A stretch of 64,000 nt of DNA. Source: Botryllus schlosseri. Its lineage: Eukaryota. Shown in pieces: positions 26,508-64,000 of the stretch. The DNA is taken from positions 5,272,001 through 5,336,000 of the forward strand of contig CM119371.1 of NCBI GenBank assembly GCA_051294905.1. Reading direction: 5' to 3'. The notes beneath the pieces are model-generated. The model was not told the DNA's origin. It did no database searches and saw only the letters and a program-made list of their open reading frames with translations. The translations under genes were made by a program, and so were the position numbers. Every line of letters begins with the position of its first letter. The stretch's first letter is position 1.

Positions 26508-26532
26508 CAAAACACAACCCAGCGACCAGGCG
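26508..26532 (-). pseudogene. PLK1-like: 3' part of the PLK1-like kinase exon split by the palindromic element
   Basis: Reads (A)WSLGCVL followed by a GTGAGT donor (26507-26502), continuing the exon part at 45818-45982. Confidence 0.8.
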
Positions 26533-29500
26533 AGTAGTAAGGGGATCTACTTTTGTTGCAGGCCAATCAAATTTCGCCACGTCGCCCTAATTGCCACGCC
26601 TATATGACGCCCATTGCCGTACCTATAAGACACCCCTTGCCACATCATCCACCCATTGCCGCACCTATAGCACACCCATTGCCACTCATTGTTTTGTGAA
26701 TTTCAATACCGGTTTTCCATGTATATTTAGCAATATGTATTGAATAACTTGAAATGTATCATCACTAATTAATTAATATAAAATGCGATTTTAAGCGCTG
26801 CGACTTGAAAATATTAATATAATAAGTTACTTTTTTGGATATACATAACATTCAGATTACACATAAATTTCGAAAACTATGATGTCAATAGAATACTATA
26901 TTTGCCAGATATTCACAGATAACACTCATCAACGTTGAACTAGGCGCGGGGTTCTATGATGATATATCAAAATTCTACACATCATCACTAATTAATTAAT
27001 TCATATAAAATGCGATTTTGAGCGCAGACAGATCGCGGTTTCGATTGCCGAGGTCTCCGCATTTCATGACCTAATATGAACGCACACTATACAACTGAAT
27101 TCATTCCAATACCTGCAAATTTACTTTGCATGTCGAGTATAAGGATAATTTAATCAGCGCTAAACGCCAACGGACTAGCCGTAGGCGCACAATTCTCGGC
27201 GTTACAATTAAACAAACTTTTCGCGGCAGGTACGCGATTCCTAACGGTTTCTACAGTTTCCACATTTCACGACTTATTTTCTTTGGACGCATACAAGCGA
27301 TTCCCAAGGTCGAGGCTATGGAAACAAATCAAGCATGAGTACGTAAATCTTGAGCTTAGATCTCCGAGATTCTTGTATGCAACTAACATTATAGACAACC
27401 ATTCGACAATATTCAACCAGCAATAATGCTTTCGATATAGTGCATCATGTACAGCGACACGCTGATCAATTCAAATTCAACAATGGGATCCCCCCCGCAC
27501 AATTATGAAGCCCGTTGTTTGCTATAAGCCGGGAAATTAGAGTCGCTGCTTCGCACCATTTTACAGGCAGTCTCAGACACTTTGCTGCATCCGAGCTTCA
27601 TACTAATACATGCATAATTTTTGCATGACGAGAATACGGGTAATACGGTCAATAATTGCCGGAGGCGAGTCATTTAAACCTTGTTGCTAGATAATACCGC
27701 TTTCGGCTACAACAAAGTTGCCCTGCAACAAAAAATAGAAGCCCTAATGATCATGCAGAGGAAAGTTCAATTATACATCGAATTATTCGAATAGACTATC
27801 GACATTGTGTAGGTATGAAGTGAAATAGAACGGAGTTTACGCAAAAGTTGCTATTGATCATAGACCAAGCTTGCTTTCAGAGCTGGAAACTAAATGCATA
27901 TGAAAATTTACCTAGGTTTTCCCCACACGCATCAAATGTAGGCCTACTCAAGTGTTTATGAGGTGGCGAATAGTTCGAAGGTTTTTGGCATGCAAGGGTG
28001 TCACATAGAATTGTGGAGTTTTCTGTAAACTATAATCCAGTGATCGATTTTCAATCACTATATTTTTCATTAATATAAACTAAGTTACTGTTAGTAGGCA
28101 AACCCTAGGAAAGTATCCTCTGATAAAAGCAGGAGTATATTTGTTATCCGTGAAATAAATAGATGGTGCGCAATATGAGCGGTGCTGCGATGACTGACAA
28201 ATACTTTGAATTAATGTATAAAAGTAGCGATTTCGAACTACGTAAAAAGTTAGTCCAGCTCACGCAAGCGACAATTTGCGCGTTCTGAAGCCGTAAATTT
28301 ACTCAACAGCATTGAGATAGCCCTGATTTAAAGAAATTTCATCACACATCTAATGATGGAGCACCTTCAAAACTAACGCAGTCGAATACCGACTTTTACG
28401 CATATCTGTTTTGCATGAACATAGCGTATACCTAAACATAGTCAATTTTAATAACGGAATTACCATGCTAATAATCAAATCCCCAGCCTGAAACTTGGTA
28501 CGCAGTCGTAGGACATTATGAAAATACACCATACCAAACTTCGTCAGACATTTCATGATGTAACACCTTTAAAACTAACGCAGTTCTCTACAGACTTTTG
28601 CGTAAATCTGTTTTTCGGTATGCGATCGATGCATTAATGACTTTAATACTATGTACTTTAAATTATCCACACTTATGAGTCGAAATGTTGTTAAGTAACT
28701 CATGTTTTCAGCATAACCTAAAAGCAAAGTGGACGAATTTCCATGTTGATCAAATACCCCAAACACTGCTTGCTTTCATAGTTAGTAATTAAGCGCATCA
28801 CAGAATTTACCCAAAAAAGTCGGTACTCCGAAAATTTTGTAAAGTAGAGCTTTCGGCGTTGGACTTAAGTTCAAATGAACAAGTGTTCACGTAGGTTCGA
28901 GGTCTGAATGAGTCTTTTAAAGCATATAGAAACGAAAAAACTAATCTAAAAAATTTACGAAGTTTGGATGCGGCATATTTGGCTTTTTTAAAAATTATTT
29001 ATACCCACGATTCGAAATATTGTTAACTAACTTATGTTTTCGACATAAGATAAGCGTGAAGTGTACAAATTTCGATGTTGCGCAAATACCATAAACTTTT
29101 CTTGCTTTCAGAGCTGACAACTAAATGCAACACAGACTTTACGCAAAAAACTTATACTTGAGCACTACGAAATGTACAAGTACTTACCTTTACACGACGT
29201 TTTTTGTAAAATGAATACTAATTTTATTAAAAAATAAAATAGAGCGAAAAACTACATTTTATCCCGGAACGCAACATGAGAAATCGTTTCGATAATATCC
29301 AACATGGTGGTTCACTTCGAGGGTAATTTGATTTAGAAAATATTATACCGACATCGCGGCATCTTTTAAAAACAAAACCATGATCAATGCTTGAGAGACC
29401 ATTTTTGCTATTTTTCATTGACATAAGTCATTCTGGAACGCGAAAACGCATTGTACGATATAGATGAAAATCAAGCAAATCCTAGGATCCTCATTTTCAA

Positions 29501-29659
29501 AGTAGCTTAGATCTCGAAATAAGCTTTGACTCGCTATTCTCCTCAAACCATGGAATTATCACGAGTATCAGCACCTTCGATCACTGAAGAAAAAGATGAA
29601 ATTATATCCGAAGCATATTCCTTGACCAGGAATTTTATCATGTACGAACTCGACGGCTC

Positions 29660-32450
29660 ATGCTAATATGTGACTCCTCACCTTGAAACTTGGTACGTAG
29701 TTGTAGGAATTGTGATTATGCAGCATACCAAATTTCCTCACGCATTTCATAATGGAACAACTTTAAAACTAACGCGGTTCTACATCGACTTTTTGCGTAC
29801 ATCTGTTTTGCGTGGGGGCGTATAGCACGTACCTATACATAGTCAACTTTAACAACGGAATTACCATGCTTAACATTGAATCCCAACTCGAAACTTGATA
29901 CGTAGTTGTAGAACATTATGGCAATGCACCATGCTAAATTTCATCACACATCTAATGATGGAACACCTTTAAAACTAACGCAGTCGAATACCGACTTTTA
30001 CGCATATCTGTTTTGCGTGAACATAGCATATACCTATACATAGTCAATTTTAATAGCAGAATTACCATGTTAAACATTGAATTCCCACCTTGAAAGTTGG
30101 TACGCGGTTATAGGAGATTATAACAATGCACCATACCAAATCCCATCACACATTTCATGATGGAACAACTTTAAAACTAACGCGGCTCTACATCGACTTT
30201 TTGCGTACATCTGTTTTGCGGGAGCGTATAGCACGTAGCCTACCCATACATAGCCAACTTTAATAACGGAATTACCATGCTTAACATTGAATCCCAACTC
30301 GAAACTTGATACGTAGTTATAGGACATTATGGCAATTCACCATGCTAAATTTCATCACACATCTAATGATGGAACACCTTTGAAACTATCGCAGTCGAAT
30401 ACCAACTTTTACGCATATCTGTTTTTCGTGAACATAGCATATACCCATACATAGTCAATTTTAATAACAGAATTAGCATGCTAAACATTAAATTCTCACC
30501 TTGAACGTTGATACGCGGTTATAGGACATAATAACAATGCACCATACCAAATTTCGTCAGACATTTCATGATGTAATACCTTTAAAACCAACGCAGTTCT
30601 ATACAGACTTTTGGCTAAATCTGTTTTTCCGTAGCGTAGCACGTACCTATACATAGTAAACTTTAATAACGGATTTAGCATGTTAATAATCGACTTAGTT
30701 TAAATAAAATACGGAATATAAACTAATCGAAAAATTCGGTAACCAATTTCGCGTAGGCTATGCATGCATACAAATGAGGAAAGTTACATCAACGCGTGTT
30801 AAAGTAGCTTTATCGAGTTATCGAATGATTTTTCCTTACATCAAAACAACTAGAATGTAGAACTAAATTAAAAAACGTATCTAAATGAGCTCCAGGGCAT
30901 TGTGATTATGCTGCATACCAAATTTCATCACACATTTCATGATGGAACAACTTTAAAACTAACGCAGTTCTATAGCAACTTTTGCCTAAATCTCTTTTCG
31001 GTAGCGTGTACATATACATAGTCAGATTTAATAACAGAATTATCATGCTAATATGTGACTCCTCACCTTGAAACTTGGTACGTAGTTGTAGGACATTGTG
31101 ATTATGCAGCATACTAAATTTCTTCACGCATTTCATAATGGAACAACTTTAAAACTAACGCGGTTCTACATCGACTTTTTGCGTTCATCTGTTTTGCGTG
31201 GTGGCGTATAGCACGTACCTATACATAGTCAACTTTAACAACGGAATTACCATGCTTAACATTGAATCCCAACTCGAAACTTGATACGTAGTTGTAGGAC
31301 ATTATGGCAATGCACCATGCTAAATTTCATCACACATCTAATAATGGAACACCTTTAAAACTAACGCAGTCGAATACCGACTTTTACGCATATCTGTTTT
31401 GCGTGAACATAGCATATACCTATACATAGTCAATTTTAATAGCAGAATTACCATGTTAAACATTGAATTCCCACCTTGAAAGTTGGTACGCGGTTATAGG
31501 AGATTATAAAATGCACCATACCAAATCCCATCACACATTTCATGATGGAACAACTTTAAAACTAACGCGGCTCTACATCGACTTTTTGCGTACATCTGTT
31601 TTGCGGGAGCGTATAGCACGTAGCCTACCCATACATAACCAAATTTAATAACGGAATTACCATGCTTAACATTGAATCCCAACTCGAAACTTGATACGTA
31701 GTTATAGGACATTATGGCAATTCACCATGCTAAATTTCATCACACATCTAATGATGGAACACCTTTGAAACTATCGCAGTCGAATACCAACTTTTACGCA
31801 TATCTGTTTTTCGTGAACATAGCATATACCCATACATAGTCAATTTTAATAACAGAATTAGCATGCTAAACATTAAATTCTCACCTTGAACGTTGATACG
31901 CGGTTGTAGGACATAATAACAATGCACCATTCCAAATTTCGTCAGACATTTCATGATGTAACACCTTTAAAACCAACGCAGTTCTATACAGACTTTTGGC
32001 TAAATCTGTTTTTCCGTAGCGTAGCACGTACCTATACATAGTCAACTTTAATAACGGATTTAGCATGTTAATAATCGACTCCCCACCTTGAAACTCGGTA
32101 CGCAGTTGTAAGACATTATGAAAATGCACCATGTCAAATTTTGTTACGCATTTCTTGATTGAACAACTTTAAAACTAACGCAGTTCCATACCGACTTTTG
32201 CGAGTGCGTAGCACGTACCTATATGCATACTCAACTTTCATAACGGAATTACCGAGCTAAACATTGAATGCGCAACTTGAAGATTGGTTCACAGGTGTAG
32301 GGCAGTATGACAATGGAACACATCAAATTTCATCACACATTTCATGATGGAACACCTTTAAAACTAACGCAGTTCTATACCAACCTCGCGTGAATCTGTT
32401 TGCGGGAGCGCAGCACGTACCTATGCGTGATCAACTTTAGTGTTGGAATT
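29660..32450. repeat. Degenerate ~200-209-bp tandem repeat array in the left arm (13 units, plus 2 more at ~28335-28620)
   Basis: An AAAACTAACGC-like anchor recurs at 29765, 29971, 30173, 30382, 30584, 30955, 31151, 31357, 31558, 31767, 31969, 32171 and 32360. Confidence 0.9.
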
Positions 32451-32624
32451 ACATATGTAATTAAGTTTCAACACTTTTACAATGTTTCGTCTTGCTTCCT
32501 ATAACATCCCACTCGAGAAAATGCGTCGTAGGATATAGATGAAACTAGCACCACTCATCAAGACCGCTGAAAACAGTACATTTCAACATTTAGTAGCAGT
32601 AAATTTCTAGTAAAGTACAAGACA

Positions 32625-33389
32625 ATACTGCCAACGGTCGTTCAGATAGGATTCTTGCGATTTCGCACGAGAATCTATAAGCCACTTCCAGTTAGATGTT
32701 TCAAATGCAGCCGATTCGGTCACCGGGCAAAACACTGTAGAAGTACACAACGATGCACTAAATGTGGTGGTAGACATGAGTACTCGGCATGTCAGAATGC
32801 ACCCCGCTGCGTAAACTGCGGTGAAGCACACTCGGCGGGCTACACAGGATGCAGACGCTACAGACATGAGGTACAAGTCAATGCCATTATGGCGAACGAA
32901 AAGGTTAATTATTGGGAGGCGAATAAAATGATACAGACGCGAACGGCCACAGTAAACATACACTCTCCACAGGAATTTCCTCCATTGCCTAGCAATAACC
33001 TCCCACATTATGCGGATCAAACGATACTTCCAGCTGCGGCACTCGCAACATGCATGCGACCGGCTCCTGCTTCGCAAGAGCCAGTTGCCACAATACAATC
33101 CGACACGATAACTATATCAAAAACTAGCTTCTTCAAATTCATCGCAGATGTTATGAAGAATACTTTACTAGATTTCAATCAAGGTAAACAACTCGACATA
33201 GAGGCAATAGTCGCTAAATCAGCAGAAGGGATTTTCGGATTCCCCACTTCAGAATTGACTAGGTTTCCCACCACACAATCGCAACCCGATGGCGTGTTGG
33301 ATCTTACGAAAGCGACGCACCACGATTCTCTTCCACCTCACAATATAGTCGACGAACATTCTCCGGGAAATAAATCACCGCCTTCATGA
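32625..33389 (+). CDS. LINE ORF1 (gag-like), N-terminally truncated
   Basis: Open from the insertion junction (ILPTVVQIGFLRFRTRIYKPLPVR), followed by three CCHC knuckles: CFKCSRFGHRAKHC, CTKCGGRHEYSAC and CVNCGEAHSAGYTGC. Confidence 0.88.
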   Translation: MLPTVVQIGFLRFRTRIYKPLPVRCFKCSRFGHRAKHCRSTQRCTKCGGRHEYSACQNAPRCVNCGEAHSAGYTGCRRYRHEVQVNAIMANEKVNYWEANKMIQTRTATVNIHSPQEFPPLPSNNLPHYADQTILPAAALATCMRPAPASQEPVATIQSDTITISKTSFFKFIADVMKNTLLDFNQGKQLDIEAIVAKSAEGIFGFPTSELTRFPTTQSQPDGVLDLTKATHHDSLPPHNIVDEHSPGNKSPPS

Positions 33390-36300
33390 TACCTTTATCC
33401 ATTTTTCAATGGAACTGTCGTGGTATATATCACAAGCTACACGAATTGAAACACTTATTGACAAACTCGGCTGTGAAACCCGACATTATAGCCATCCAAG
33501 AATCTCACCTAGTATCCAAATACGTGCCTGTTATACATGGCTATTCCCTCGTAAGAAAAGATAGAGACGTTAATGGTGGAGGTGTGTGCTTCTTCATCAG
33601 CAATATGATTAAATTCGTTGAAATTCCTCTCCACGGTTACTCGCCAATTGAAGTGTTAGCAATAGAGGTAGAAGGGACACGCATATACAACGTTTACGTA
33701 CCCCCAGGAAGAGCTATATCACGAGATTTATTCTACCGTATCTTCGCCCAACACAGTAATAAATGCATTTATCTAGGTGATTTCAACGCTCATCATCCGA
33801 TGTTTAAGAGCATTCGCACAAATTCTTACGGTCGTCACCTCAACGCGGCGATGGATCGTTTTGATTTGGTTGCGCTGAACACAGACGTGCCAACCCGAGT
33901 GAACTTTTCCCTTAACGCGACGCAACGGCACAGCATACTTGACCTGACGCTGGCCACTCCCGACATTGCCCACCGAATTTCTACTACGGTCACAGACAGC
34001 CTGCTGGGCAGCGATCATTATATCATTATTAATGAAATCGACACAACTACCGACCGGACCCCTGAATGTCATGTTGAATCGTGGGCTCTGAAACGTGCCA
34101 ACTGGCAAAAATTCGCCGTTCTGTGCAACCAAGAACTTGAAGGATCTGCCCAGAACTCGCTGACGGTGGAAGATTTCACCAGAATACTCATCTCCACAGC
34201 CGCAATCTGTATCCCGACAACAAAGCCCCGTAAGAAGCCCATGATGCCGTGGTGGAACGATGCCTGCTCGCGGGCAATCAGGTTGAAGAAAGCTGCCTTC
34301 AAAAAAATGAAGCTCACATTCCGGGAAGACGCAATAATCTTATTTAAAAGGCGCAGGGCAGAGGCCAGAAAAACAATATTGGAGACTAAGAAAACATTTT
34401 GGCGGTCATTTTGCAACTCCCTTGATAAAAATTGCAAATTATCCAAAGTATGGAGAATAGCCAAATCTATGAATGGTTACAAAACTTGGAGCCATATCAG
34501 CGTGTTGTCGCACAACGGAGCTACGGTTAAAGGAGACATAAATATCGCAAACACCCTAGCAAAACAATTTCGCTCTGTTAGCAGCGATGAAAACTACGAT
34601 CCGACATTTCGAAACCAACGCCTCTCGATTGAGAAATCCTTCCGCGACAACGAAGCAACGGCTGCAGTGCAAAGTAGCTTGTCACCGGTCGATATCAATT
34701 CAGAATTCACAATGGTCGAACTGAAGAATGTTCTCAAAACACGAAAAAGCACAGCCCCTGGTGTCGACAGAGTATGTCAGCAAATGCTTGCAAACCTGCC
34801 TGAAGATTGCTTATCCGTACTGATCGGCATCATAAACGAATCGTGGAGAACCGGCAAATGCCCACAATCTTGGAAGCACGCTATCGTTGTACCAATTCCC
34901 AAGCCTGGTAAACCGAAAGAATCCGTTTCCTCGTACAGGCCCATTTCCCTCACGAGCAATTTATGTAAGAGTGTCGAACGAATGATCAATTACAGATTGA
35001 AATGGTGGCTTGATAGCAAAAAATTACTCCATCCCGCGCTCAGCGGGTTTCGAAGTAGACGTTCAGCAAAAGATTGTATCATGAGTCTACATGACGATGT
35101 CTACAAGTCCATATGGAACCAGCGATCAACAATAGCTGTGTTCATAGACTTAGAGAAAGCGTATGACATGGTTTGGATAAATGGACTAATCCACAAGCTA
35201 CACGGTCAGGGTTTGCGAGGAAACATACTAGACTGGTTGAGGTCGTTCTTATCGGATAGAAAATTTCAGGTTCGCGTGGGGTCTTCTTATTCGGACATAT
35301 TTCCGCTAGAAAACGGTCTTCCTCAGGGCAGCGTTTTAAGCCCGATCATGTACAACCTCATGATGAACGATCTGCCTGATCAAATTGAATCAAGCATCAA
35401 TATATTCGCAGATGATATATGTTTGTGGGAGACTGGTCTCAATATCGAACACATTGCCACTTCACTCCAGGCGTCATTGGAGAAGTTGTCAGATTGGTGT
35501 AAAAAATGGGGATTTCGAATAAATGCAAATAAATGCTCCTCTATGATATTCACCAAAAAACGTAAATTACCAGATGTCCGACTGAAAATAGATGGGATAA
35601 CCGTGCCTATCAGTAATGAATTTAAATATCTCGGGGTCGTATTCGATAAACGATTATCCTATAAAGCGCACACCAATGTAGTTGCAGCGAAATGCGTTGC
35701 GCGATTGAATTTGCTACGTTTCCTAAGTGGCACCACTTGGGGAGCGTCCAAGGAATGTTTAATGACGATTTATAGAGTACTTATACGGTCAGTGATCGAG
35801 TATGGCTTTGAGGCATATATGTTTAGCCCAAAATACAATTCAAACCGTATCCAGTGGATACAAAACGCCGCCTTGAGAATTTGTTGCGGGGCAATGAAAA
35901 GCACCCCGATTTGTACACTCCAACATACAACGAATGAATTGCCGATTCACATTCGCCACCGCAGAGCTTGCTTAATATACAAGTGCTACGTCCGATCTCA
36001 CCCAACGCATCCATGTCGGCCACTATGCGAGAACTCTTGGCACGAAATTTTCCCAGATTCGATCAAGTTTACCACTTTTAATATGTACACTCAAATATCA
36101 AGCATAAGGGGACTTGACATTGCGGTTCCCAGCCCAATTTCCCTTCCACCATGGATTGACCTACCGGTAAAAGTTGATACATGTCTTCGAAGTTTGGCTT
36201 ATCACCACCCTAACTCACCGTTCGGACGTGAGTGTCAAGACTACGTAGAAACCAACTATGACTTATATTTACAAATATATACTGATGGCTCCAAAATGGA

Positions 36301-37126
36301 CAGCGGATGTGGTAGTAGTTTTCATGTCAATCTTTTGAACATCTCCTCGAAATTTCGAATCCCCAAAACAAGATCTATATTTACAGCAGAGTTGTTTGCG
36401 ATCTACAAAGCTCTGGAATGGGTTTCCGGACAATGCGAGCCGCCAAGTCATAATAGTATAGCCATTCTTTCGGATAGTCTAAGCGCTTTGGACGCGATAC
36501 AGCACCGTTCCTCGACTCATCATTTAATTTCCAAAATATTCGATGTATGCTTAGATCTCTTAAAAAGAGAAATTATTATTGCTTTTATATGGATTCCAGG
36601 TCACGAAGGCGTCGGTTTCAATCACGTCGCAGACACCCTCGCAAAGGAGGCCGCCGGGGGCGAAGCAGGAGTCAACGACGAAGAAAGTCTGAAAATAACA
36701 CTATCGGAATGCAAGACTATCATAAACGAGCAATCCGAAAGGTGGTGGACCTCCGAGTTCAATGCGGCAGAGACTGGTTTGCACTATCGACGCTTCACTG
36801 AAGACAAAGAAACCACAAAGGAAATGAATAAGCTGGATAAACAATATAGTACAACGCTATTTAGACTCCAGACAGGCCATTGCAAACTCAACGGACACCT
36901 GTACCGTATTGGGTGCCATGATGATGGACTATGTGAAATTTGTTACTCGGAGGAATCGGTCGAACACTTCTTGATCCAGTGCAGCAGATACGACGACCAC
37001 CGAACTTCACTTAAAAGAGCCGCCGAACAATTAGGCATATGTTTTGTACTGGACAATTTATTATCTGACCCCAGAATGCTTATAAAAGTAGTGGAATTTG
37101 TAAATGCCACCGGGCGAGTCATCTGA
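33386..37126 (+). CDS. LINE ORF2: APE endonuclease, reverse transcriptase, RNase H and C-terminal zinc knuckle (1246 aa, uninterrupted)
   Basis: APE motifs QWNCRG, IQESH, GDFNAH, SDH. RT motifs YRPISLTS, PQGSVLSP, FADD, YLGV. RNase H motifs YTDGSK, AELFAI, SDSLSAL, WIPGH..N..AD.LAK. C-terminal CEIC..ESVEHFLIQC. Confidence 0.96.
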   Translation: MIPLSIFQWNCRGIYHKLHELKHLLTNSAVKPDIIAIQESHLVSKYVPVIHGYSLVRKDRDVNGGGVCFFISNMIKFVEIPLHGYSPIEVLAIEVEGTRIYNVYVPPGRAISRDLFYRIFAQHSNKCIYLGDFNAHHPMFKSIRTNSYGRHLNAAMDRFDLVALNTDVPTRVNFSLNATQRHSILDLTLATPDIAHRISTTVTDSLLGSDHYIIINEIDTTTDRTPECHVESWALKRANWQKFAVLCNQELEGSAQNSLTVEDFTRILISTAAICIPTTKPRKKPMMPWWNDACSRAIRLKKAAFKKMKLTFREDAIILFKRRRAEARKTILETKKTFWRSFCNSLDKNCKLSKVWRIAKSMNGYKTWSHISVLSHNGATVKGDINIANTLAKQFRSVSSDENYDPTFRNQRLSIEKSFRDNEATAAVQSSLSPVDINSEFTMVELKNVLKTRKSTAPGVDRVCQQMLANLPEDCLSVLIGIINESWRTGKCPQSWKHAIVVPIPKPGKPKESVSSYRPISLTSNLCKSVERMINYRLKWWLDSKKLLHPALSGFRSRRSAKDCIMSLHDDVYKSIWNQRSTIAVFIDLEKAYDMVWINGLIHKLHGQGLRGNILDWLRSFLSDRKFQVRVGSSYSDIFPLENGLPQGSVLSPIMYNLMMNDLPDQIESSINIFADDICLWETGLNIEHIATSLQASLEKLSDWCKKWGFRINANKCSSMIFTKKRKLPDVRLKIDGITVPISNEFKYLGVVFDKRLSYKAHTNVVAAKCVARLNLLRFLSGTTWGASKECLMTIYRVLIRSVIEYGFEAYMFSPKYNSNRIQWIQNAALRICCGAMKSTPICTLQHTTNELPIHIRHRRACLIYKCYVRSHPTHPCRPLCENSWHEIFPDSIKFTTFNMYTQISSIRGLDIAVPSPISLPPWIDLPVKVDTCLRSLAYHHPNSPFGRECQDYVETNYDLYLQIYTDGSKMDSGCGSSFHVNLLNISSKFRIPKTRSIFTAELFAIYKALEWVSGQCEPPSHNSIAILSDSLSALDAIQHRSSTHHLISKIFDVCLDLLKREIIIAFIWIPGHEGVGFNHVADTLAKEAAGGEAGVNDEESLKITLSECKTIINEQSERWWTSEFNAAETGLHYRRFTEDKETTKEMNKLDKQYSTTLFRLQTGHCKLNGHLYRIGCHDDGLCEICYSEESVEHFLIQCSRYDDHRTSLKRAAEQLGICFVLDNLLSDPRMLIKVVEFVNATGRVI

Positions 37127-39901
37127 TTGCTTGACAATGTGGACTTTATTATGGGCCCTTGAGTCATGGTGCGAAATGACTTCGTAGTCGGTGCACCAAT
37201 TTTCCCTTATTCAACCAACCAACCAAGACCGCTGAAAACAGTACATTTCAACATTAAGTAGCAGTAAATTTCTAGTAAAGTACAAGACGTGATGATTTCC
37301 GAGTGAGCTAAAAAGTAAGTATTGCAGGTATAGTTTACCTGAAAACCGAATACTCTGAAATAGAAGTAGATGCAGTGTAAATAGTTGATCACTTGATTAA
37401 GTTTAGTGCAAGCAGATAAAACCTATACTTGAGTAGTACAAAATGCACGAGTACTTCGCTATCGCCTCCCTCCACGTAATAAGTGTCTACGGTTTAAGAC
37501 TGCTTTTACCGATACTCGTCCGTTTCAGTTTTAGATAGAATTCGGAAACCAAATAATTTTCATAAACATAAGCTAATTTAATGAATTTACTCGAATGCAC
37601 TATGCTGCGCTGATAAGATTAATTATAATATAATTATCATGTTACAGCGATTTTTCTAGCGTAGAAAATCTTTAAAATGTAGTAAGCAGGCCAAATGAAG
37701 ATATTCGTTGAGCTGAATAAACATAAAAATACTCTAGACTACTTTATCGGTACTTTACAGTTACAGTTTTAGATAAAATTTGTCCCTTTCACCTATAATT
37801 ACAACTCCTCGCTATCTAAACATGTTTAGAATATATTATTTGCGATGATACGAACCCGTGAAGTACTCAAGTTGCTTTTCGTAGGATATAGATGAAACTG
37901 ACAACACTCACCAAGACCAGTGATCCACTGAAAAAAGTACATTGTAGCAGTAAAGTCCTACTAAAGTACAAGAAGTAATGATTTCCCAGTTAGTTAAAAA
38001 GTAAGTATTGAGGTATAGTTTGGTCGAAAAAGCGAAAAACTCTGAAATAGAAGTAGATGCAGTGTAAATAGGTAATCACTTCATTAAGTATAGCGCAAGC
38101 AGGCCAAACCCATACTTAAGTACTGCAAATGTACAAGTACTTCGCTATGTTCTCCCTCCACGTAAAAAGTGACTAGGTTTTAGAGTACTTTATCGGTACT
38201 CGACAGTTTCAGTGTTAGATAAAATTTGGTAAGACTTTAAATTTTAAAGTAGTTTGAGCTTACGTTTGTATCACCTTGACAAGTAACATTATCAGACATG
38301 AAAATGATACTATCACCGAATATAGAAGTTAACACGCGTCAATGTGCTTCGGAATGCACGAGAAATTGCTTACTAAGAGAAGTATATTGTTGTATACACA
38401 ATAGTGGAGAGAATATTTAAAATGTAGTAAGCAGGCCGATGGGTATTCGTTTAGTTGTATAGGCATAAAAAACATTCCCGCGCGCGCGTCTTAGTATTAG
38501 GTGGTAGGGTTAGGAAGTGCTTTGTTTAAGAGCGCGCGGGAATGTTTTTCATGTCTATACAACTAAACGAATACCCATCGGCCTGCTTACTACATTTTAA
38601 ATATTCTCTCCACTATTGTGTATACAACAATATACTTCTCTTAGTAAGCAATTTCTCGTGCATTCCGAAGCACATTGACGCGTGTTAACTTCTATATTCG
38701 GTGATAGTATCATTTTCATGTCTGATAATGTTACTTGTCAAGGTGATACAAACGTAAGCTCAATCTACTTTAAAATTTAAAGTCTTACCAAATTTTATCT
38801 AACACTGAAACTGTCGAGTACCGATAAAGTACTCTAAAACCTAGTCACTTTTTACGTGGAGGGAGAACATAGCGAAGTACTTGTACATTTGCAGTACTTA
38901 AGTATAGGTTTGGCCTGCTTGCGCTATACTTAATGAAGTGATTACCTATTTACACTGCATCTACTTCTATTTCAGAGTTTTTCGCTTTTTCGACCAAACT
39001 ATACCTCAATACTTACTTTTTAACTAACTGGGAAATCATTACTTCTTGTACTTTAGTAGGACTTTACTGCTACAATGTACTTTTTTCAGTGGATCACTGG
39101 TCTTGGTGAGTGTTGTCAGTTTCATCTATATCCTACGAAAAGCAACTTGAGTACTTCACGGGTTCGTATCATCGCAAATAATATATTCTAAACATGTTTA
39201 GATAGCGAGGAGTTGTAATTATAGGTGAAAGGGACAAATTTTATCTAAAACTATAACTGTAAAGTACCGATAAAGTAGTCTAGAGTATTTTTATGTTTAT
39301 TCAGCTCAACGAATATCTTCATTTGGCCTGCTTACTACATTTTAAAGATTTTCTACGCTAGAAAAATCGCTGTAACATGATAATTATATTATAATTAATC
39401 TTATCAGCGCAGCATAGTGCATTCGAGTAAATTCATTAAATTAGCTTATGTTTATGAAAATTATTTGGTTTCCGAATTCTATCTAAAACTGAAACGGACG
39501 AGTATCGGTAAAAGCAGTCTTAAACCGTAGACACTTATTACGTGGAGGGAGGCGATAGCGAAGTACTCGTGCATTTTGTACTACTCAAGTATAGGTTTTA
39601 TCTGCTTGCACTAAACTTAATCAAGTGATCAACTATTTACACTGCATCTACTTCTATTTCAGAGTATTCGGTTTTCAGGTAAACTATACCTGCAATACTT
39701 ACTTTTTAGCTCACTCGGAAATCATCACGTCTTGTACTTTACTAGAAATTTACTGCTACTAAATGTTGAAATATACTGTTTTCAGCGGTCTTGATGAGTG
39801 GTGCTAGTTTCATCTATATCCTACGACGCATTTTCTCGAGTGGGATGTTATAGGAAGCAAGACGAAACATTGTAAAAGTGTTGAAACTTAATTACATATG
39901 T

Positions 39902-42692
39902 AATTCCATCACTAAAGTTGATCACGCATAGGTACGTGCTGCGCTCCCGCAAACAGATTCACGCGAGGTTGGTATAGAACTGCGTTAGTTTTAAAGGTGT
40001 TCCATCATGAAATGTGTGATGAAATTTGATGTGTTCCATTGTCATACTGCCCTACACCTGTGAACCAATCTTCAAGTTGCGCATTCAATGTTTAGCTCGG
40101 TAATTCCGTTATGAAAGTTGAGTATGCATATAGGTACGTGCTACGCACTCGCAAAAGTCGGTATGGAACTGCGTTAGTTTTAAAGTTGTTCAATCAAGAA
40201 ATGCGTAACAAAATTTGACATGGTGCATTGTCATAATGTCTTACAACTGCGTACCGAGTTTCAAGGTGGGGAGTCGATTATTAACATGCTAAATCCGTTA
40301 TTAAAGTTGACTATGTATAGGTACGTGCTACGCTACGGAAAAACAGATTTAGCCAAAAGTCTGTATAGAACTGCGTTGGTTTTAAAGGTGTTACATCATG
40401 AAATGTCTGACGAAATTTGGAATGGTGCATTGTTATTATGTCCTACAACCGCGTATCAACGTTCAAGGTGAGAATTTAATGTTTAGCATGCTAATTCTGT
40501 TATTAAAATTGACTATGTATGGGTATATGCTATGTTCACGAAAAACAGATATGCGTAAAAGTTGGTATTCGACTGCGATAGTTTCAAAGGTGTTCCATCA
40601 TTAGATGTGTGATGAAATTTAGCATGGTGAATTGCCATAATGTCCTATAACTACGTATCAAGTTTCGAGTTGGGATTCAATGTTAAGCATGGTAATTCCG
40701 TTATTAAATTTGGTTATGTATGGGTAGGCTACGTGCTATACGCTCCCGCAAAACAGATGTACGCAAAAAGTCGATGTAGAGCCGCGTTAGTTTTAAAGTT
40801 GTTCCATCATGAAATGTGTGATGGGATTTGGTATGGTGCATTTTATAATCTCCTATAACCGCGTACCAACTTTCAAGGTGGGAATTCAATGTTTAACATG
40901 GTAATTCTGCTATTAAAATTGACTATGTATAGGTATATGCTATGTTCACGCAAAACAGATATGCGTAAAAGTCGGTATTCGACTGCGTTAGTTTTAAAGG
41001 TGTTCCATTATTAGATGTGTGATGAAATTTAGCATGGTGCATTGCCATAATGTCCTACAACTACGTATCAAGTTTCGAGTTGGGATTCAATGTTAAGCAT
41101 GGTAATTCCGTTGTTAAAGTTGACTATGTATAGGTACGTGCTATACGCCACCACGCAAAACAGATGAACGCAAAAAGTCGATGTAGAACCGCGTTAGTTT
41201 TAAAGTTGTTCCATTATGAAATGCGTGAAGAAATTTGGTATGCGGCATAATCACAATGTCCTACAACTACGTACCAAGTTTCAAGGTGAGGAGTCACATA
41301 TTAGCATGATAATTCTGTTATTAAATCTGACTATGTATATGTACACGCTACCGAAAACAGATTTAGGCAAAAGTTGCTATAGAACTGCGTTAGTTTTAAA
41401 GTTGTTCCATCATGAAATGTGTGATGAAATTTGGTATGCAGCATAATCACAATGCCCTGGAGCTCATTTAGATACGTTTTTTAATTTAGTTCTACATTCT
41501 AGTTGTTTTGATGTAAGGAAAAATCATTCGATAACTCGATACAGCTACTTTAACACGCGTTGATGTAACTTTCCTCATTTGTATGCATGCATAGCCTACG
41601 CGAAATTGGTTACCGAATTTTTCGATTAGTTTATATTCCGTATTTTATTTAAACCAAGTCGATTATTAACATGCTAAATCCGTTATTAAAGTTTACTATG
41701 TATAGGTACGTGCTACGCTACGGAAAAACAGATTTAGCCAAAAGTCTGTATAGAACTGCGTTGGTTTTAAAGGTATTACATCATGAAATGTCTGACGAAA
41801 TTTGGTATGGTGCATTGTTATTATGTCCTATAACCGCGTATCAACGTTCAAGGTGAGAATTTAATGTTTAGCATGCTAATTCTGTTATTAAAATTGACTA
41901 TGTATGGGTATATGCTATGTTCACGAAAAACAGATATGCGTAAAAGTTGGTATTCGACTGCGATAGTTTCAAAGGTGTTCCATCATTAGATGTGTGATGA
42001 AATTTAGCATGGTGAATTGCCATAATGTCCTATAACTACGTATCAAGTTTCGAGTTGGGATTCAATGTTAAGCATGGTAATTCCGTTATTAAAGTTGGCT
42101 ATGTATGGGTAGGCTACGTGCTATACGCTCCCGCAAAACAGATGTACGCAAAAAGTCGATGTAGAGCCGCGTTAGTTTTAAAGTTGTTCCATCATGAAAT
42201 GTGTGATGGGATTTGGTATGGTGCATTGTTATAATCTCCTATAACCGCGTACCAACTTTCAAGGTGGGAATTCAATGTTTAACATGGTAATTCTGCTATT
42301 AAAATTGACTATGTATAGGTATATGCTATGTTCACGCAAAACAGATACGCGTAAAAGTCGGTATTCGACTGCGTTAGTTTTAAAGGTGTTCCATCATTAG
42401 ATGTGTGATGAAATTTAGCATGGTGCATTGCCATAATGTTCTACAACTACGTATCAAGTTTCGAGTTGGGATTCAATGTTAAGCATGGTAATTCCGTTGT
42501 TAAAGTTGACTATGTATAGGTACGTGCTATACGCCCCCACGCAAAACAGATGTACGCAAAAAGTCGATGTAGAACCGCGTTAGTTTTAAAGTTGTTCCAT
42601 TATGAAATGCGTGAGGAAATTTGGTATGCTGCATAATCACAATTCCTACAACTACGTACCAAGTTTCAAGGTGAGGAGTCACATATTAGCAT
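39902..42692. repeat. Mirror copy of the ~200-209-bp tandem array in the right arm
   Basis: Reverse complement of 29660-32450. Confidence 0.9.
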
Positions 42693-45600
42693 GAGCCGTC
42701 GAGTTCGTACATGATAAAATTCCTGGTCAAGGAATATGCTTCGGATATAATTTCATCTTTTTCTTCAGTGATCGAAGGTGCTGATACTCGTGATAATTCC
42801 ATGGTTTGAGGAGAATAGCGAGTCAAAGCTTATTTCGAGATCTAAGCTACTTTGAAAATGAGGATCCTAGGATTTGCTTGATTTTCATCTATATCGTACA
42901 ATGCGTTTTCGCGTTCCAGAATGACTTATGTCAATGAAAAATAGCAAAAATGGTCTCTCAAGCATTGATCATGGTTTTGTTTTTAAAAGATGCCGCGATG
43001 TCGGTATAATATTTTCTAAATCAAATTACCCTCGAAGTGAACCACCATGTTGGATATCATCGAAACGATTTCTCATGTTGCGTTCCGGGATAAAATGTAG
43101 TTTTTCGCTCTATTTTATTTTTTAATAAAATTAGTATTCATTTTACAAAAAACGTCGTGTAAAGGTAAGTACTTGTACATTTCGTAGTGCTCAAGTATAA
43201 GTTTTTTGCGTAAAGTCTGTGTTGCATTTAGTTGTCAGCTCTGAAAGCAAGAAAAGTTTATGGTATTTGCGCAACATCAAAATTTGTACACTTCACGCTT
43301 ATCTTATGTCGAAAACATAAGTTAGTTAACAATATTTCGAATCGTGGGTATAAATAATTTTTAAAAAAGCCAAATATGCCGCATCCAAACTTCGTAAATT
43401 TTTTAGATTAGTTTTTTCGTTTCTATATGCTTTAAAAGACTCATTCAGACCTCGAACCTACGTGAACACTTGTTCATTTGAACTTAAGTCCAACGCCGAA
43501 AGCTCTACTTTACAAAATTTTCGGAGTACCGACTTTTTTGGGTAAATTCTGTGATGCGCTTAATTACTAACTATGAAAGCAAGCAGTGTTTGGGGTATTT
43601 GATCAACATGGAAATTCGTCCACTTTGCTTTTAGGTTATGCTGAAAACATGAGTTACTTAACAACATTTCGACTCATAAGTGTGGATAATTTAAAGTACA
43701 TAGTATTAAAGTCATTAATGCATCGATCGCATACCGAAAAACAGATTTACGCAAAAGTCTGTAGAGAACTGCGTTAGTTTTAAAGGTGTTACATCATGAA
43801 ATGTCTGACGAAGTTTGGTATGGTGTATTTTCATAATGTCCTACGACTGCGTACCAAGTTTCAGGCTGGGGATTTGATTATTAGCATGGTAATTCCGTTA
43901 TTAAAATTGACTATGTTTAGGTATACGCTATGTTCATGCAAAACAGATATGCGTAAAAGTCGGTATTCGACTGCGTTAGTTTTGAAGGTGCTCCATCATT
44001 AGATGTGTGATGAAATTTCTTTAAATCAGGGCTATCTCAATGCTGTTGAGTAAATTTACGGCTTCAGAACGCGCAAATTGTCGCTTGCGTGAGCTGGACT
44101 AACTTTTTACGTAGTTCGAAATCGCTACTTTTATACATTAATTCAAAGTATTTGTCAGTCATCGCAGCACCGCTCATATTGCGCACCATCTATTTATTTC
44201 ACGGATAACAAATATACTCCTGCTTTTATCAGAGGATACTTTCCTAGGGTTTGCCTACTAACAGTAACTTAGTTTATATTAATGAAAAATATAGTGATTG
44301 AAAATCGATCACTGGATTATAGTTTACAGAAAACTCCACAATTCTATGTGACACCCTTGCATGCCAAAAACCTTCGAACTATTCGCCACCTCATAAACAC
44401 TTGAGTAGGCCTACATTTGATGCGCCTGGGGAAAACCTAGGTAAATTTTCATATGCATTTAGTTTCCAGCTCTGAAAGCAAGCTTGGTCTATGATCAATA
44501 GCAACTTTTGCGTAAACTCCGTTCTATTTCACTTCATACCTACACAATGTCGATAGTCTATTCGAATAATTCGATGAATAATTGAACTTTCCTCTGCATG
44601 ATCATTAGGGCTTCTATTTTTTGTTGCAGGGCAACTTTGTTGTAGCCGAAAGCGGTATTATCTAGCAACAAGGTTTAAATGACTCGCCTCCGGCAATTAT
44701 TGACCGTATTACCCGTATTCTCGTCATGCAAAAATTATGCATGTATTAGTATGAAGCTCGGATGCAGCAAAGTGTCTGAGACTGCCTGTAAAATGGTGCG
44801 AAGCAGCGACTCTAATTTCCCGGCTTATAGCAAACAACGGGCTTCATAATTGTGCGGGGGGGATCCCATTGTTGAATTTGAATTGATCAGCGTGTCGCTG
44901 TACATGATGCACTATATCGAAAGCATTATTGCTGGTTGAATATTGTCGAATGGTTGTCTATAATGTTAGTTGCATACAAGAATCTCGGAGATCTAAGCTC
45001 AAGATTTACGTACTCATGCTTGATTTGTTTCCATAGCCTCAACCTTGGGAATCGCTTGTATGCGTCCAAAGAAAATAAGTCGTGAAATGTGGAAACTGTA
45101 GAAACCGTTAGGAATCGCGTACCTGCCGCGAAAAGTTTGTTTAATTGTAACGCCGAGAATTGTGCGCCTACGGCTAGTCCGTTGGCGTTTAGCGCTGATT
45201 AAATTATCCTTATACTCGACATGCAAAGTAAATTTGCAGGTATTGGAATGAATTCAGTTGTAGTGTGCTTTCATATTAGGTCATGAAATGCGGAGACCTC
45301 GGCAATCGAAACCGCGATCTGTCTGCGCTCAAAATCGCATTTTATATGAATTAATTAATTAGTGATGATGTGTAGAATTTTGATATATCATCATAGAACC
45401 CCGCGCCTAGTTCAACGTTGATGAGTGTTATCTGTGAATATCTGGCAAATATAGTATTCTATTGACATCATAGTTTTCGAAATTTATGTGTAATCTGAAT
45501 GTTATGTATATCCAAAAAAGTAACTTATTATATTAATATTTTCAAGTCGCAGCGCTTAAAATCGCATTTTATATTAATTAATTAGTGATGATACATTTCA

Positions 45601-45817
45601 AGTTATTCAATACATATTGCTAAATATACATGGAAAACCGGTATTGAAATTCACAAAACAATGAGTGGCAATGGGTGTGCTATAGGTGCGGCAATGGGTG
45701 GATGATGTGGCAAGGGGTGTCTTATAGGTACGGCAATGGGCGTCATATAGGCGTGGCAATTAGGGCGACGTGGCGAAATTTGATTGGCCTGCAACAAAAG
45801 TAGATCCCCTTACTACT

Positions 45818-45982
45818 CAGGCGTCCGCTTCGAAACTGTGTTCATTCTTGCCGAGAACTTCCGGGTCATTAATAGTCGGGGCTGCCGCAAAGAGTATTCG
45901 TTGTGTGGCTGTCGCAGACGACCTTGGTAGCTTGACCAAAATCTTCAAACTTCACCTCATTATTGTTTGGGAAGTCTGTCAG
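45818..45982 (-). pseudogene. PLK1-like: PLK1-like kinase exon (subdomains VII-IX), 5' part, frameshifted
   Basis: NNEVKFEDFGQATKVVCDSHTTNTLCGSPDY(*/fs)PEVLGKNEHSFEADA vs PLK1 [47 protein letters not shown]. Confidence 0.85.
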
Positions 45983-46329: not shown

Positions 46330-47620
46330 TTTACGCGCTTTTTTCTGACTATTTCTCCGGTTTACGCGCTTTTTTCCAACTATTACCATTTTCTAAATAA
46401 CCGTGGAAATCCTTGTATCCATGAAGAATACGGTACAGTACCGTAAAAAGGGGTCAATCATAATTCTCATTTTTTTAGTTATCATTTTTCGAAAAACCGT
46501 GAAAATCCATGCACCCATGTAGAATATGGTCACGTAAACATCAAATGTCTGCGCGCGTTAAAAGAGCTTACTTGATTTCATGAGGGAAGGCCCTCTTACA
46601 TTTATGCGATTTTTGGTTCTCATTTTGCGAATAATCGTGAAAATACATGCAGGCCTACCTATGTAGAATATGATAGGCCAACCGTAAACAGTGGTCGATC
46701 ATTAAATTTCTGCACCGGTTAAAAGAGCTTACTTTTATTTTATGAGGGAAGGCCCTCCTACATTTACGCAATTTATAGTTATCATTTTACGAATAACCGT
46801 GGAAAGACATGTAGGCCTACCCATGTAGAATATGGTACCGTAAACAGTTGTCGATCATCAAATTTCTGTGCGCGGTAAATGAGCTTACATTGATTTTACA
46901 AGGGTGGTCTCCTACATTTACGCGATTTTTGGTTATCATTTTTTGAAAATAGCTGAAAATACATGCAGGCCTAACCATATAAAATATGGTACCGTAAACA
47001 GTTGTCGATCATTAAATTTCCGCACGCGTTGTGCATGCGAGCTTACTTCGATTTATGAGGGGGGCCCCTCCTACATTTACGTATTTTTGGTTATCATTTT
47101 GCGAATAACCGTGAAAATATATGTGCCCATGTAGAATATGGTACCGTAAACAGTTGTCGATCATTAAATCCTGCACGCATTGTACGAGCTTACTTAGATT
47201 TCATGAGGAGGGGCCCTCCTACATTTACAAAATTTTTGGTTATCATTTTGCGAATGACCGTGAAAATATATGTACATGTACTGTACACCTGTAGAATATG
47301 ATACCGTAAACAGTTGTTGATCATTAAATCCTGCCCGCGTTGTACGAGATTACTTCGATTTACGCAATTTTTGGTTATCATTTTGCAAATAACTGAAAAT
47401 ACATGCAGCCATGCAGGCCTACCCATGTAGAAAATGTTACTGTAAACAGTTGTCGATAATTAAATTTCTGCACATGTTATAAGAGCTTACTTATATTTTA
47501 TGAGGGGGGCCCTGCTACATTTATGGAATTTATAGTTATCGTTTTGCGAATAACCGTGAAAACATATGTAGGCTACCCATGTAAAATATGGTACCGTAAA
47601 CGGTTGTCGATCATCAAATT
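46330..47620. repeat. ~150-bp degenerate tandem repeat (about 8 units) inside the hAT element
   Basis: TATGGTACCGTAAACAGTTGTCGATCAT recurs at ~46831, ~46985, ~47137 and in more diverged form on either side. Confidence 0.85.
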
Positions 47621-63527: not shown

Positions 63528-64000
63528 TCTTCTGGATTATCTGTATATTACTTTACTTCTTCAAGCATCACACATCAAACGCTCTCTGCTTGAAAACGAG
63601 TATTCAACGATAGCTTGGAATGAGCTATTACATAGTAATATAATTCCTATATTATAGCAACCCGGTCTAAAATACAGGAGGTATTAGCAAAAACGGACCA
63701 GTGTAATAAATAGCAATACCCCATACGATAATCTGCAAGCCTTCAGCAAATCACAAATTTTGCATAATCACGAACACCAAAATCTATCACGTTGCACAAC
63801 TGATGAATTATTATAGAATACTGGTGCACCAAAATCAACTGTGCATAAACAACAGCGTCAAAATTACAAAAATATTACACTGGTCAACACATTTTTAGGC
63901 AGACAAACGTAAGAGTGGTTTTGGGGGTTCTGAAGGGCACTGATTCCAAATATGACCTTGGTTTTTTTCAAATTCGCTATTGTTGTGGAGATAACCCATG

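What the first reader, a model, noticed from the sequence alone, without database searches (positions are those of the whole stretch)
26533..45817. A ~14.6-kb all-palindrome, gene-less mobile element with Polinton/Maverick ends and a 6-bp TSD
Seen: once the LINE (4665 bp including one TSD copy) is subtracted, the element is 14,620 bp, made of a 7296-bp arm, a 33-bp loop and a 7291-bp inverted arm. It starts AGTAGT, ends ACTACT and is flanked by CAGGCG on both sides. No arm ORF reaches 100 aa and none resembles pPolB, integrase, ATPase, protease or capsid. Known: Polintons/Mavericks have 5'-AG...CT-3' ends that often begin with short repeats such as (AGT)n, 6-bp TSDs made by a retroviral-type integrase, and TIRs usually no longer than about 1 kb around a gene-rich core. 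Inference: this is a non-autonomous parasite of a Polinton whose 'TIR' is the whole element. It may be a snap-back (copy-back, defective-interfering-like) replicon that was integrated as a unit by a helper integrase. I cannot establish from sequence alone whether such a family has already been described.
Basis: partly seen in the sequence, partly recalled or inferred. Interest (0 to 1): 0.92.

Follow-up and report, generated by a model that had tools for sequence, protein, structure and literature searches.

The report
Gene-less palindromic transposon with Maverick-type ends
A 14.6-kb stretch of non-coding DNA that reads almost the same on both strands is inserted here like a transposon, with the end letters and 6-bp target duplication typical of virus-like Maverick/Polinton elements, and it may be a fossil of how such elements copy themselves.

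Summary
The element spans 26533-45817. Without a LINE (plus one copy of its target duplication, 4,665 bp) it is 14,620 bp: arms of 7,296 and 7,291 bp and a 33-nt loop. The arms differ by 21 substitutions and 2 indels. It starts AGTAGT, ends ACTACT and is flanked by CAGGCG on both sides.

None of 139 stop-free frames of 28 aa or more in the uninterrupted arm gives a credible Pfam match.

(AGT)2//(ACT)2 with a perfect 6-bp duplication is the commonest end signature published for vertebrate Mavericks (PMC8097293). The TIR length here is about 5 times the published maximum.

New here:
- The arm sequence is very repetitive in the host's sequencing runs, and pieces occur under two other species labels. 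This is one member of an abundant family.
- The two arms share bases that nearly all other copies lack, so they come from one arm.
- The turn-round lies at a 5-bp inverted repeat (TCTTA/TAAGA), a fold-back signature.
- The unmirrored flanks and the one-armed LINE argue against an assembly artefact.

Not testable here: a helper Maverick with the same ends, other copies with their duplications, and whether the palindrome formed before or after integration.

Verdict: a new variant of a known kind; interest 0.62.

The parts
26527..26532 (.). left copy of the 6-bp target-site duplication CAGGCG
   Evidence: identical to 45818-45823
26533..26538 (+). terminal end motif (AGT)2
   Evidence: the commonest vertebrate Maverick end motif in PMC8097293
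26590..26700 (+). five subterminal direct repeats, about 23 bp apart (CCATTGCCrYACCTATAnGACAC-like). I infer they are binding sites for the end-recognising protein.
   Evidence: TRF period 23, 4.3 copies; motif positions 26591, 26614, 26637, 26656, 26679. Function inferred only.
26533..32623 (+). left arm, outer 6,091 bp
   Evidence: 99.7% reverse-complementary to 39729-45817
29659..32439 (+). satellite block in the left arm: 202/411-bp tandem repeats with a 1,385-bp higher-order duplication (29658-30695 = 31043-32080, 98.65%). A related 290-bp piece lies at 28334-28624.
32559..32623 (+). first copy of the LINE's 61-65-bp target duplication (part of the left arm)
   Evidence: Base 32591 (T) is not among the arm differences, so it agrees with the right arm.
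32624..37223 (+). secondary insertion: 5'-truncated non-LTR retrotransposon. It has a partial ORF1 with three CCHC knuckles, an intact 1,250-aa ORF2 (endonuclease, reverse transcriptase, RNase H) and a (CCAA)n tail.
   Evidence: best database relative only 41% identical
37224..37288 (+). second copy of the LINE target duplication (1 mismatch, A at 37256)
37289..38493 (+). left arm, inner 1,205 bp, ending in CCCGCGCGCGCG-TCTTA
38494..38526 (.). 33-nt asymmetric central loop, bracketed by the 5-bp inverted repeat TCTTA (38489-38493) / TAAGA (38527-38531)
   Evidence: (DNA fold -86.4 kcal/mol, z = -23.6)
38527..45817 (-). right arm, 7,291 bp, uninterrupted mirror of the left arm. It holds the mirrored satellite block (about 39900-42673) and the mirrored subterminal repeats (45661-45760).
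45812..45817 (+). terminal end motif (ACT)2
45818..45823 (.). right copy of the 6-bp target-site duplication CAGGCG

Best explanation
This is a real, integrated, non-autonomous mobile element, one member of an abundant non-coding repeat family of the host, which is an invertebrate and probably an arthropod. Its ends carry the signature of integration by a Maverick/Polinton-type (retroviral-like) integrase: (AGT)2 ... (ACT)2 termini and a 6-bp target duplication.

The palindrome arose in one step from a single arm. A truncated linear copy ending near the short inverted repeat TCTTA-33 nt-TAAGA folded back on itself, or the polymerase switched strands there, and was copied back to the terminus. 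That gave a dimer with two identical, functional ends. The dimer (14.6 kb) falls within the published 13-25-kb size range of full Polintons. A helper's integrase then inserted it as a unit. Later a LINE landed in one arm.

Shown: the anatomy, the end signature, the lack of genes, the repetitiveness of the family, the common origin of the two arms, and the order of events (palindrome first, then LINE).

Inferred: the helper, formation before integration, and any role of the 23-bp subterminal repeats as protein-binding sites.
For: 1. AGTAGT...ACTACT ends and CAGGCG on both sides. PMC8097293 (passages) names 5'-(AGT)2//(ACT)2-3' with perfect 6-bp duplications as the commonest vertebrate Maverick end type. 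It ties the end repeats to jumping-back in protein-primed replication.
2. Total length 14,620 bp lies inside the published Polinton range of 13-25 kb (10.1101/2023.08.22.554363) and 12.7-24.6 kb (PMC8097293).
3. The left and right flanks are unrelated apart from the 6 bp, and the repeat stops exactly at the termini.
4. Arm differences are spread evenly (21 events, KS p = 0.39), as expected if the whole palindrome formed at once.
5. At several places where both arms agree, nearly all the family's depth in run X1 reads another base. For example 27801: 9,539.4 of 9,563.1; 28673: 13,178 of 13,178; 37598: 39,730.4 of 39,735.9. None of these is an arm difference. The two arms are therefore each other's closest relatives.
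6. The centre is a 5-bp inverted repeat with a 33-nt spacer beside a (GC)n run. This is the classic fold-back geometry.
7. The family is abundant. In X1, 53,955 contigs were laid, of which 32,674 are only 90-99% alike. Summed depth is 7,572-81,067 in the 24 arm bins against 262-697 in the six LINE-only bins. Pieces 97-99% alike occur in runs labelled as two other organisms.
8. 0 of 139 stop-free frames match a protein family credibly.
Against: - No autonomous Maverick/Polinton with these ends was seen. None lies in the window, and the genome could not be searched.
- The published end motif is documented for vertebrates, while this host has no CpG depletion (observed/expected 1.03) and is not a vertebrate.
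- Mavericks are usually low-copy (median 8 per vertebrate genome, PMC8097293) and their TIRs reach at most 1,447 bp. Here the family is very abundant and the repeat is 7.3 kb.
- No other copy with its flanks could be recovered, so the 6-bp duplication rests on a single insertion. A 4-bp reading (AGGC) is not strictly excluded.
- No empty-site contig was among the 15 joints shown (134 were not shown).
- Nothing here tells formation before integration from formation in place.
- The depth figures are summed contig depths, which the tool says are not copy numbers.
Confidence: 0.45

Rival explanations
1. Palindrome made in place. An ordinary non-autonomous element with much shorter TIRs inserted here and made the 6-bp duplication. 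Later a break inside it was repaired by fold-back at the TCTTA/TAAGA repeat, or by copying the other arm. This replaced one half and stretched the inverted repeat to the whole element.
For: Keeps the termini and the duplication. The centre has fold-back geometry. Fold-back repair at short inverted repeats near breaks is established in cells (PMC3834830, PMC6103520, PMC11724301: search listing and abstract starts only). Even spacing of the arm differences fits any one-step origin.
Against: A fold-back at a chromosomal break normally yields a dicentric or acentric product, not a neat replacement that ends exactly at the opposite terminus. It would need a second, precise template switch back to the right flank. 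No trace of a former, different right half remains.
Confidence: 0.15
2. Core-less derivative of a long-TIR Polinton. The parent had multi-kb, satellite-filled TIRs, and deletion of its gene core left TIR-loop-TIR.
For: TIR-only Polinton insertions are reported in C. elegans (Polinton_CE_TIR, 10.1101/2024.01.15.575659, passages). The (GC)n runs at both inner arm ends could have mediated a deletion.
Against: Published TIR lengths are 46-1,447 bp (PMC8097293) and 100-1,500 bp. No remnant of any core gene is left in the 33-nt loop.
Confidence: 0.15
3. Foldback-type cut-and-paste transposon of another or still unknown DDE superfamily, comparable to Drosophila FB/Tetris or Galileo. Its 6-bp duplication and AGT ends only mimic Mavericks.
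For: Long inverted arms built partly of tandem repeats and lacking genes. The family's abundance is more typical of cut-and-paste non-autonomous families than of Mavericks. Possible further fold-back joints in other copies: 28241>44708 and 29498>43128, with only 21-27 letters on the shorter side, so weak.
Against: The known foldback families make 9-bp (FB) or 7-8-bp (Galileo/P) duplications (recalled). Of the superfamilies I can recall with 6-bp duplications (Polinton, IS3EU, Dada), only Polinton has AG...CT ends. The exact (AGT)2//(ACT)2 motif has a 1/4096 chance.
Confidence: 0.2
4. Not a mobile unit: an assembly artefact (fold-back chimeric read, or a mis-join of two family copies) or a plain inverted segmental duplication.
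For: The family is highly repetitive, which invites mis-assembly. No long read or single contig spanning the stretch was available (no listed piece spans it).
Against: A fold-back artefact would mirror the flanks too, but the flanks are unrelated except for CAGGCG. A LINE with its own target duplication sits in one arm only. The arms differ at 21 substitutions and 2 indels. The two arms share bases that nearly all other family copies lack, which argues against a join of two unrelated copies. The matching 6-bp duplication has a 1/4096 chance.
Confidence: 0.05

Closest known systems
Maverick/Polinton virus-like transposons (e.g. the vertebrate elements of PMC8097293; general description in 10.1101/2023.08.22.554363)
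   Same: End motif 5'-(AGT)2//(ACT)2-3', perfect 6-bp target duplication, terminal inverted repeats, total length inside the 13-25 kb range.
   Different: No pPolB, integrase, protease, ATPase or capsid gene. The inverted repeat is the whole element (7.3 kb per arm against a published maximum of 1,447 bp). The arms carry a 202/411-bp satellite. The family is highly repeated, whereas Mavericks are mostly low-copy. The host is not a vertebrate.
TIR-only Polinton remnants in C. elegans (Polinton_CE_TIR; 10.1101/2024.01.15.575659, passages read)
   Same: Polinton-derived insertions without the gene core.
   Different: Those are single or partial 744-bp TIRs at a rearranged locus. They are not a complete two-ended 14.6-kb palindrome with its own target duplication.
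Foldback (FB) elements and Tetris of Drosophila (recalled, not read here)
   Same: Works alike: long inverted arms built partly of tandem repeats, little or no unique centre, no genes in most copies, mobilised in trans.
   Different: FB makes 9-bp duplications and belongs to the MULE-related group (recalled). The ends differ.
Galileo, foldback-like P-superfamily element (title and abstract of PMC10990002 seen in the listing; duplication length recalled)
   Same: Very long TIRs and many non-autonomous copies.
   Different: 7-8-bp duplication (recalled), TIRs up to about 1.2 kb, encodes a P-like transposase.
Snap-back/hairpin defective genomes of protein-primed linear replicons (adenovirus incomplete particles with long inverted repeats; hairpin derivatives of yeast killer linear plasmids). 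Recalled; my search found no open paper to cite.
   Same: One genome end duplicated in inverted orientation, giving a replicon with two identical origins that depends on a helper.
   Different: Those are free molecules. This one is integrated in a chromosome with a target duplication, and no replication was observed.

Membership tests
Polinton/Maverick (as a non-autonomous derivative) | 6-bp (5-8 bp) target-site duplication | tested here: met
   CAGGCG at 26527-26532 and 45818-45823. One insertion only.
Polinton/Maverick (as a non-autonomous derivative) | 5'-AG...CT-3' termini made of short repeats, such as (AGT)2//(ACT)2 | tested here: met
   AGTAGT / ACTACT; motif as given in PMC8097293
Polinton/Maverick (as a non-autonomous derivative) | Terminal inverted repeats of about 50-1,500 bp around a unique core | tested here: not met
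   Inverted repeats are present, but at 7,296/7,291 bp they leave only a 33-nt loop
Polinton/Maverick (autonomous) | Encodes protein-primed PolB and a retroviral-like integrase (plus capsid, ATPase, protease) | tested here: not met
   0 of 139 stop-free frames of 28 aa or more in the right arm match these or any other family credibly. Not an autonomous member.
Polinton/Maverick (as a non-autonomous derivative) | An autonomous element with the same termini in the same genome | not testable with these tools
   No genome is held. Terminal 23-mer absent from the three public collections scanned.
Foldback (FB) / MULE-related | 9-bp target duplication (recalled) | tested here: not met
   The direct repeat at the borders is 6 bp. 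The bases outside it differ.
Foldback (FB) / MULE-related | Long inverted arms containing tandem repeats, with little or no centre | tested here: met
Galileo / P superfamily | 7-8-bp target duplication (recalled) | tested here: not met
   6 bp
MITE | Small size (under about 800 bp) | tested here: not met
   14,620 bp
Fold-back assembly artefact / plain inverted duplication | Symmetry continues into the flanks, with no insertion signature | tested here: not met
   Flanks unrelated apart from the 6 bp; LINE in one arm only

The most novel reading that the evidence does not exclude
The element is an integrated snap-back (hairpin-dimer) defective replicon of a Maverick/Polinton. One end of a linear, protein-primed molecule was copied back on itself at a 5-bp inverted repeat. 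That regenerated two origins and two integrase sites at roughly unit genome length (14.6 kb, so possibly still packageable), and a helper then inserted it. It would be a genomic fossil of the free linear replication intermediate that has been proposed for these elements but, to my knowledge, not directly observed. It would also be the founder type of a helper-dependent, gene-less lineage that outnumbers its helper many times over.
Probability: 0.3. Interest if true: 0.85.

Novelty: new variant of a known kind. Interest (0 to 1): 0.62.

Why it matters
How Mavericks/Polintons replicate is still a model: excision, protein-primed copying of a linear molecule, then integration. Non-autonomous relatives are scarcely documented. 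One paper notes their apparent absence in the lizard (PMC3014272).

A two-ended palindromic dimer that was integrated as a unit can only be made easily from a free linear intermediate. If a helper with the same ends exists, this element gives a testable handle on that step. It would also show that Maverick machinery can drive a high-copy, gene-less parasite.

Independently of that, a 7.3-kb near-perfect hairpin is a potential fragile site. If transcribed, it is also a source of double-stranded RNA against its own family.

Tried and rejected
- Other copies in the window: none. 0 BLASTN hits of the element outside 26533-45817 at E <= 1e-3.
- Public collections: the terminal 23-mer gave 0 matches in metagenome, viral and prokaryote-genome contigs. 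A 29-nt satellite pattern gave 0 matches in metagenome and genome contigs.
- Earlier notes of this scan: nothing for this genome or for look-alike sequence. A word search returned only unrelated Polinton notes.
- Rfam and tRNA scans of the window: 0 matches.
- Nested TIR elements inside the arm: only 6 short, weak inverted pairs, none with a clear insertion signature. One is an inward-facing partial copy of the terminal motif TTTTGTTGCAGG(G/C)CAA about 1.2 kb inside each end. Its meaning is unknown.
- Host identity: the zinc-finger and LINE proteins have no close named relative (best 42-48% and 41%). The atlas hints conflict: Arthropoda for the LINE and Chordata for the zinc-finger protein. 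CpG observed/expected of 1.03 argues against a vertebrate. Left as an invertebrate, probably an arthropod.
- Expression: no RNA holder listed, so no statement is made.
- Empty-site allele: none among the 15 joints shown (134 not shown), so no conclusion.
Stop-free frames were scanned instead.
- Literature: searches found no paper describing a palindromic, snap-back or all-TIR Polinton/Maverick derivative. Repbase and Dfam could not be consulted, and Kapitonov & Jurka 2006 is not held. A prior description cannot therefore be excluded.
- Rejected reading: two family copies inserted head to head. That does not give one shared 6-bp duplication or arms that share private bases.

Full report
**Observation.** The window reads ...CAGGCG|AGTAGTAAGGGGATC... 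at 26527-26547 and ...GATCCCCTTACTACT|CAGGCG... at 45803-45823. An inverted-repeat search finds collinear blocks of 558, 5,539 and 1,262 nt at 99-100% complementarity.

One arm is interrupted at 32624-37223 by a non-LTR retrotransposon. Its 1,250-aa ORF2 matches Exo_endo_phos_2, RVT_1 and RNase_H. ORF1 is 5'-truncated but keeps three CCHC knuckles, and the element ends in (CCAA)n. It is flanked by a 61-65-bp target duplication with one mismatch.

After removing 32624-37288 (4,665 bp), the arms are 7,296 and 7,291 bp, the loop is 33 nt (38494-38526) and the total is 14,620 bp.

The arms differ by 21 substitutions (12 transitions, 9 transversions), a TA indel, and a GCG indel in the (GC)n run beside the loop. 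My first alignment carried one duplicated base at the LINE joint, which produced a spurious 1-nt indel. One search is the corrected count.

**Not an artefact.**
- The flanks share nothing but the 6 bp, and the element has no match elsewhere in the window. A fold-back read or a mirrored assembly would mirror the flanks as well.
- The LINE, with its own target duplication, lies in one arm only.
- Where both arms agree, the rest of the family often reads another base. In run X1, 9,539.4 of 9,563.1 depth units at 27801, 13,178 of 13,178 at 28673 and 39,730.4 of 39,735.9 at 37598 read otherwise. The two arms are therefore each other's nearest relatives and are not two unrelated copies joined by an assembler.

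**Content.** In the uninterrupted right arm, 0 of 40 stop-free frames of 45 aa or more gave a credible Pfam match (two rows at E 0.03 and 0.14). 0 of 99 frames of 28-44 aa matched at E <= 0.01.

Reading inward from the terminus, each arm holds:
- five 23-bp-spaced subterminal repeats (26590-26700);
- about 3 kb of unique-looking sequence;
- a 2.8-kb block of 202/411-bp tandem repeats with a 1,385-bp higher-order duplication;
- 1.3 kb up to the centre.

No clear nested TIR elements were found. Rfam and tRNA scans are empty.

**Host.** Two C2H2 zinc-finger ORFs lie at the window ends. CpG observed/expected is 1.03 at 39% G+C, which argues against a vertebrate. The LINE's nearest atlas clusters are arthropod. 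Protein searches gave no close named relative. I leave the host as an invertebrate, probably an arthropod.

**Family size.** No genome is held. One search of public runs and one lay (Logan contigs only, four runs) were possible.
- In the best holder X1, 53,955 contigs lay on the 20-kb stretch: 21,281 at 99% or more, 19,774 at 95-99% and 12,900 at 90-95%.
- Summed contig depth in X1 was 7,572-81,067 in the 24 arm bins against 262-697 in the six LINE-only bins. Two flank positions read about 47-57.
- X5 gives the same picture: arms 3,252-33,276, LINE 322-1,152, and a flank piece at 59.7.
- The tool warns that these sums are not copy numbers, so I use them only qualitatively. Thousands of distinct diverged contigs cannot come from one locus. 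The arm sequence, terminal bins included, therefore belongs to an abundant and partly old repeat family.
- Runs labelled as two other organisms (X13, X9) hold pieces 97-99% alike (for example 26971-27447 with 2 other letters). No contig there covered the two flank positions the output tabulates (26342 and 26353), and none ran over the ends of the stretch.
- Flank sequences of other copies, an empty-site allele and contigs across the centre could not be read from the output. 134 joints and 1,545 loose ends were not shown.

**What the ends say.** Passages of PMC8097293 state four things about vertebrate Mavericks:
- Their TIRs span 46-1,447 bp.
- Intact elements span 12.7-24.6 kb, and copy numbers are mostly low (median 8).
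- The end repeats are expected to serve jumping-back in protein-primed replication.

10.1101/2023.08.22.554363 gives 13-25 kb, TIRs of 100-1,500 bp and duplications of 5-8 bp for Polintons in general.

The element here meets the end motif and the duplication exactly, each with a 1/4096 chance, and its length falls in the range. It fails the gene content and the TIR length. Of the other superfamilies that I recall making 6-bp duplications (IS3EU, Dada), none has AG...CT ends. FB (9 bp) and Galileo/P (7-8 bp) do not fit the duplication. These figures are recalled, not tested.

**How the palindrome formed.** Folding the central 198 nt as DNA gives one hairpin (-86.4 kcal/mol, z = -23.6). Its stem runs through CCCGCGCGC and then TCTTA/TAAGA around a 33-nt loop. 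A short inverted repeat with a spacer of a few tens of nucleotides at the centre of a large palindrome is the known signature of fold-back priming or strand switching at a DNA end. For this I saw only titles and abstract starts (PMC3834830, PMC6103520, PMC11724301). The arm differences are evenly spread (KS p = 0.39), as expected for a one-step origin rather than a gradually growing inverted repeat.

A truncated linear molecule that keeps only one terminus would regain two identical termini by such a fold-back. Recalled parallels are the adenovirus incomplete genomes and the hairpin derivatives of yeast linear plasmids. An integrase that recognises those termini could then insert the dimer with one duplication.

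I cannot separate it from three rivals:
- fold-back repair in place after an ordinary insertion (0.15);
- loss of the core from a parent with very long TIRs (0.15);
- a foldback-type cut-and-paste family of another superfamily (0.20). The high abundance of the family makes this one more plausible than it would otherwise be.

An artefact or non-mobile duplication gets 0.05.

**Order of events and age.** The LINE's target duplication is arm sequence, and the LINE is absent from the other arm, so it came after the palindrome. Arm divergence is 0.29% (21 of 7,288), so the palindrome is young or is kept alike by conversion.

**Comparison and novelty.** It works like a foldback element: long repeat-bearing inverted arms, no genes, trans-mobilised. 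It carries Maverick-type ends. It is not an autonomous Maverick, because the defining genes were tested and not met. At most it is a non-autonomous derivative.

My searches found no description of a palindromic or snap-back Maverick/Polinton derivative. The closest is the TIR-only Polinton remnants in C. elegans. An earlier, unchecked note of this scan mentions Polintons with long repeat-filled TIRs in another genome (e1-1168274). Repbase and Dfam and the founding 2006 paper could not be read, so prior description is possible.

I rate it a new variant of a known kind, with interest 0.62. The most novel reading, a genomic fossil of the linear replication intermediate, gets probability 0.3.

Noticed in passing
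window 32559-37288: The LINE inside the left arm made an unusually long target duplication of 61-65 bp, and it ends in a (CCAA)n tail instead of poly(A). ORF2 is intact (1,250 aa: endonuclease, reverse transcriptase, RNase H), while ORF1 is 5'-truncated. Its best database relative is only 41% identical, so it is a poorly represented lineage. Its depth in the runs suggests a few to a dozen copies.
   Followed up: partly
window 27717-27737 and 44619-44634: About 1.2 kb inside each end lies an inward-facing partial copy of the terminal motif TTTTGTTGCAGG(G/C)CAA. It could be a relic of a shorter ancestral element, a second protein-binding site, or chance.
   Followed up: no
window 46472-47620: A separate array of diverged tandem repeats (about 74-84% alike, offsets of roughly 140-160 bp and multiples) lies about 650 bp right of the element. 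It is unrelated to the element's own 202/411-bp satellite.
   Followed up: no
window 1449-2714 (-) and 62427-63536 (-): Two single-exon-looking C2H2 zinc-finger ORFs (421 and 369 aa, 11 or more fingers each) lie at the two ends of the window. The region between them is almost free of long ORFs.
   Followed up: partly
window 26750-26784: All four runs laid hold a contig of the subterminal region that skips 33 bases here (letters between not known). It is therefore a common length variant of the family's end region.
   Followed up: no
window 29184 and 29663: Several contigs in runs X1 and X5 break away from the arm at these two points with consistent other sequence (20 and 9 contigs in X1). In other family copies the 480-bp segment between them lies in a different context, so the family is modular.
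   Followed up: no
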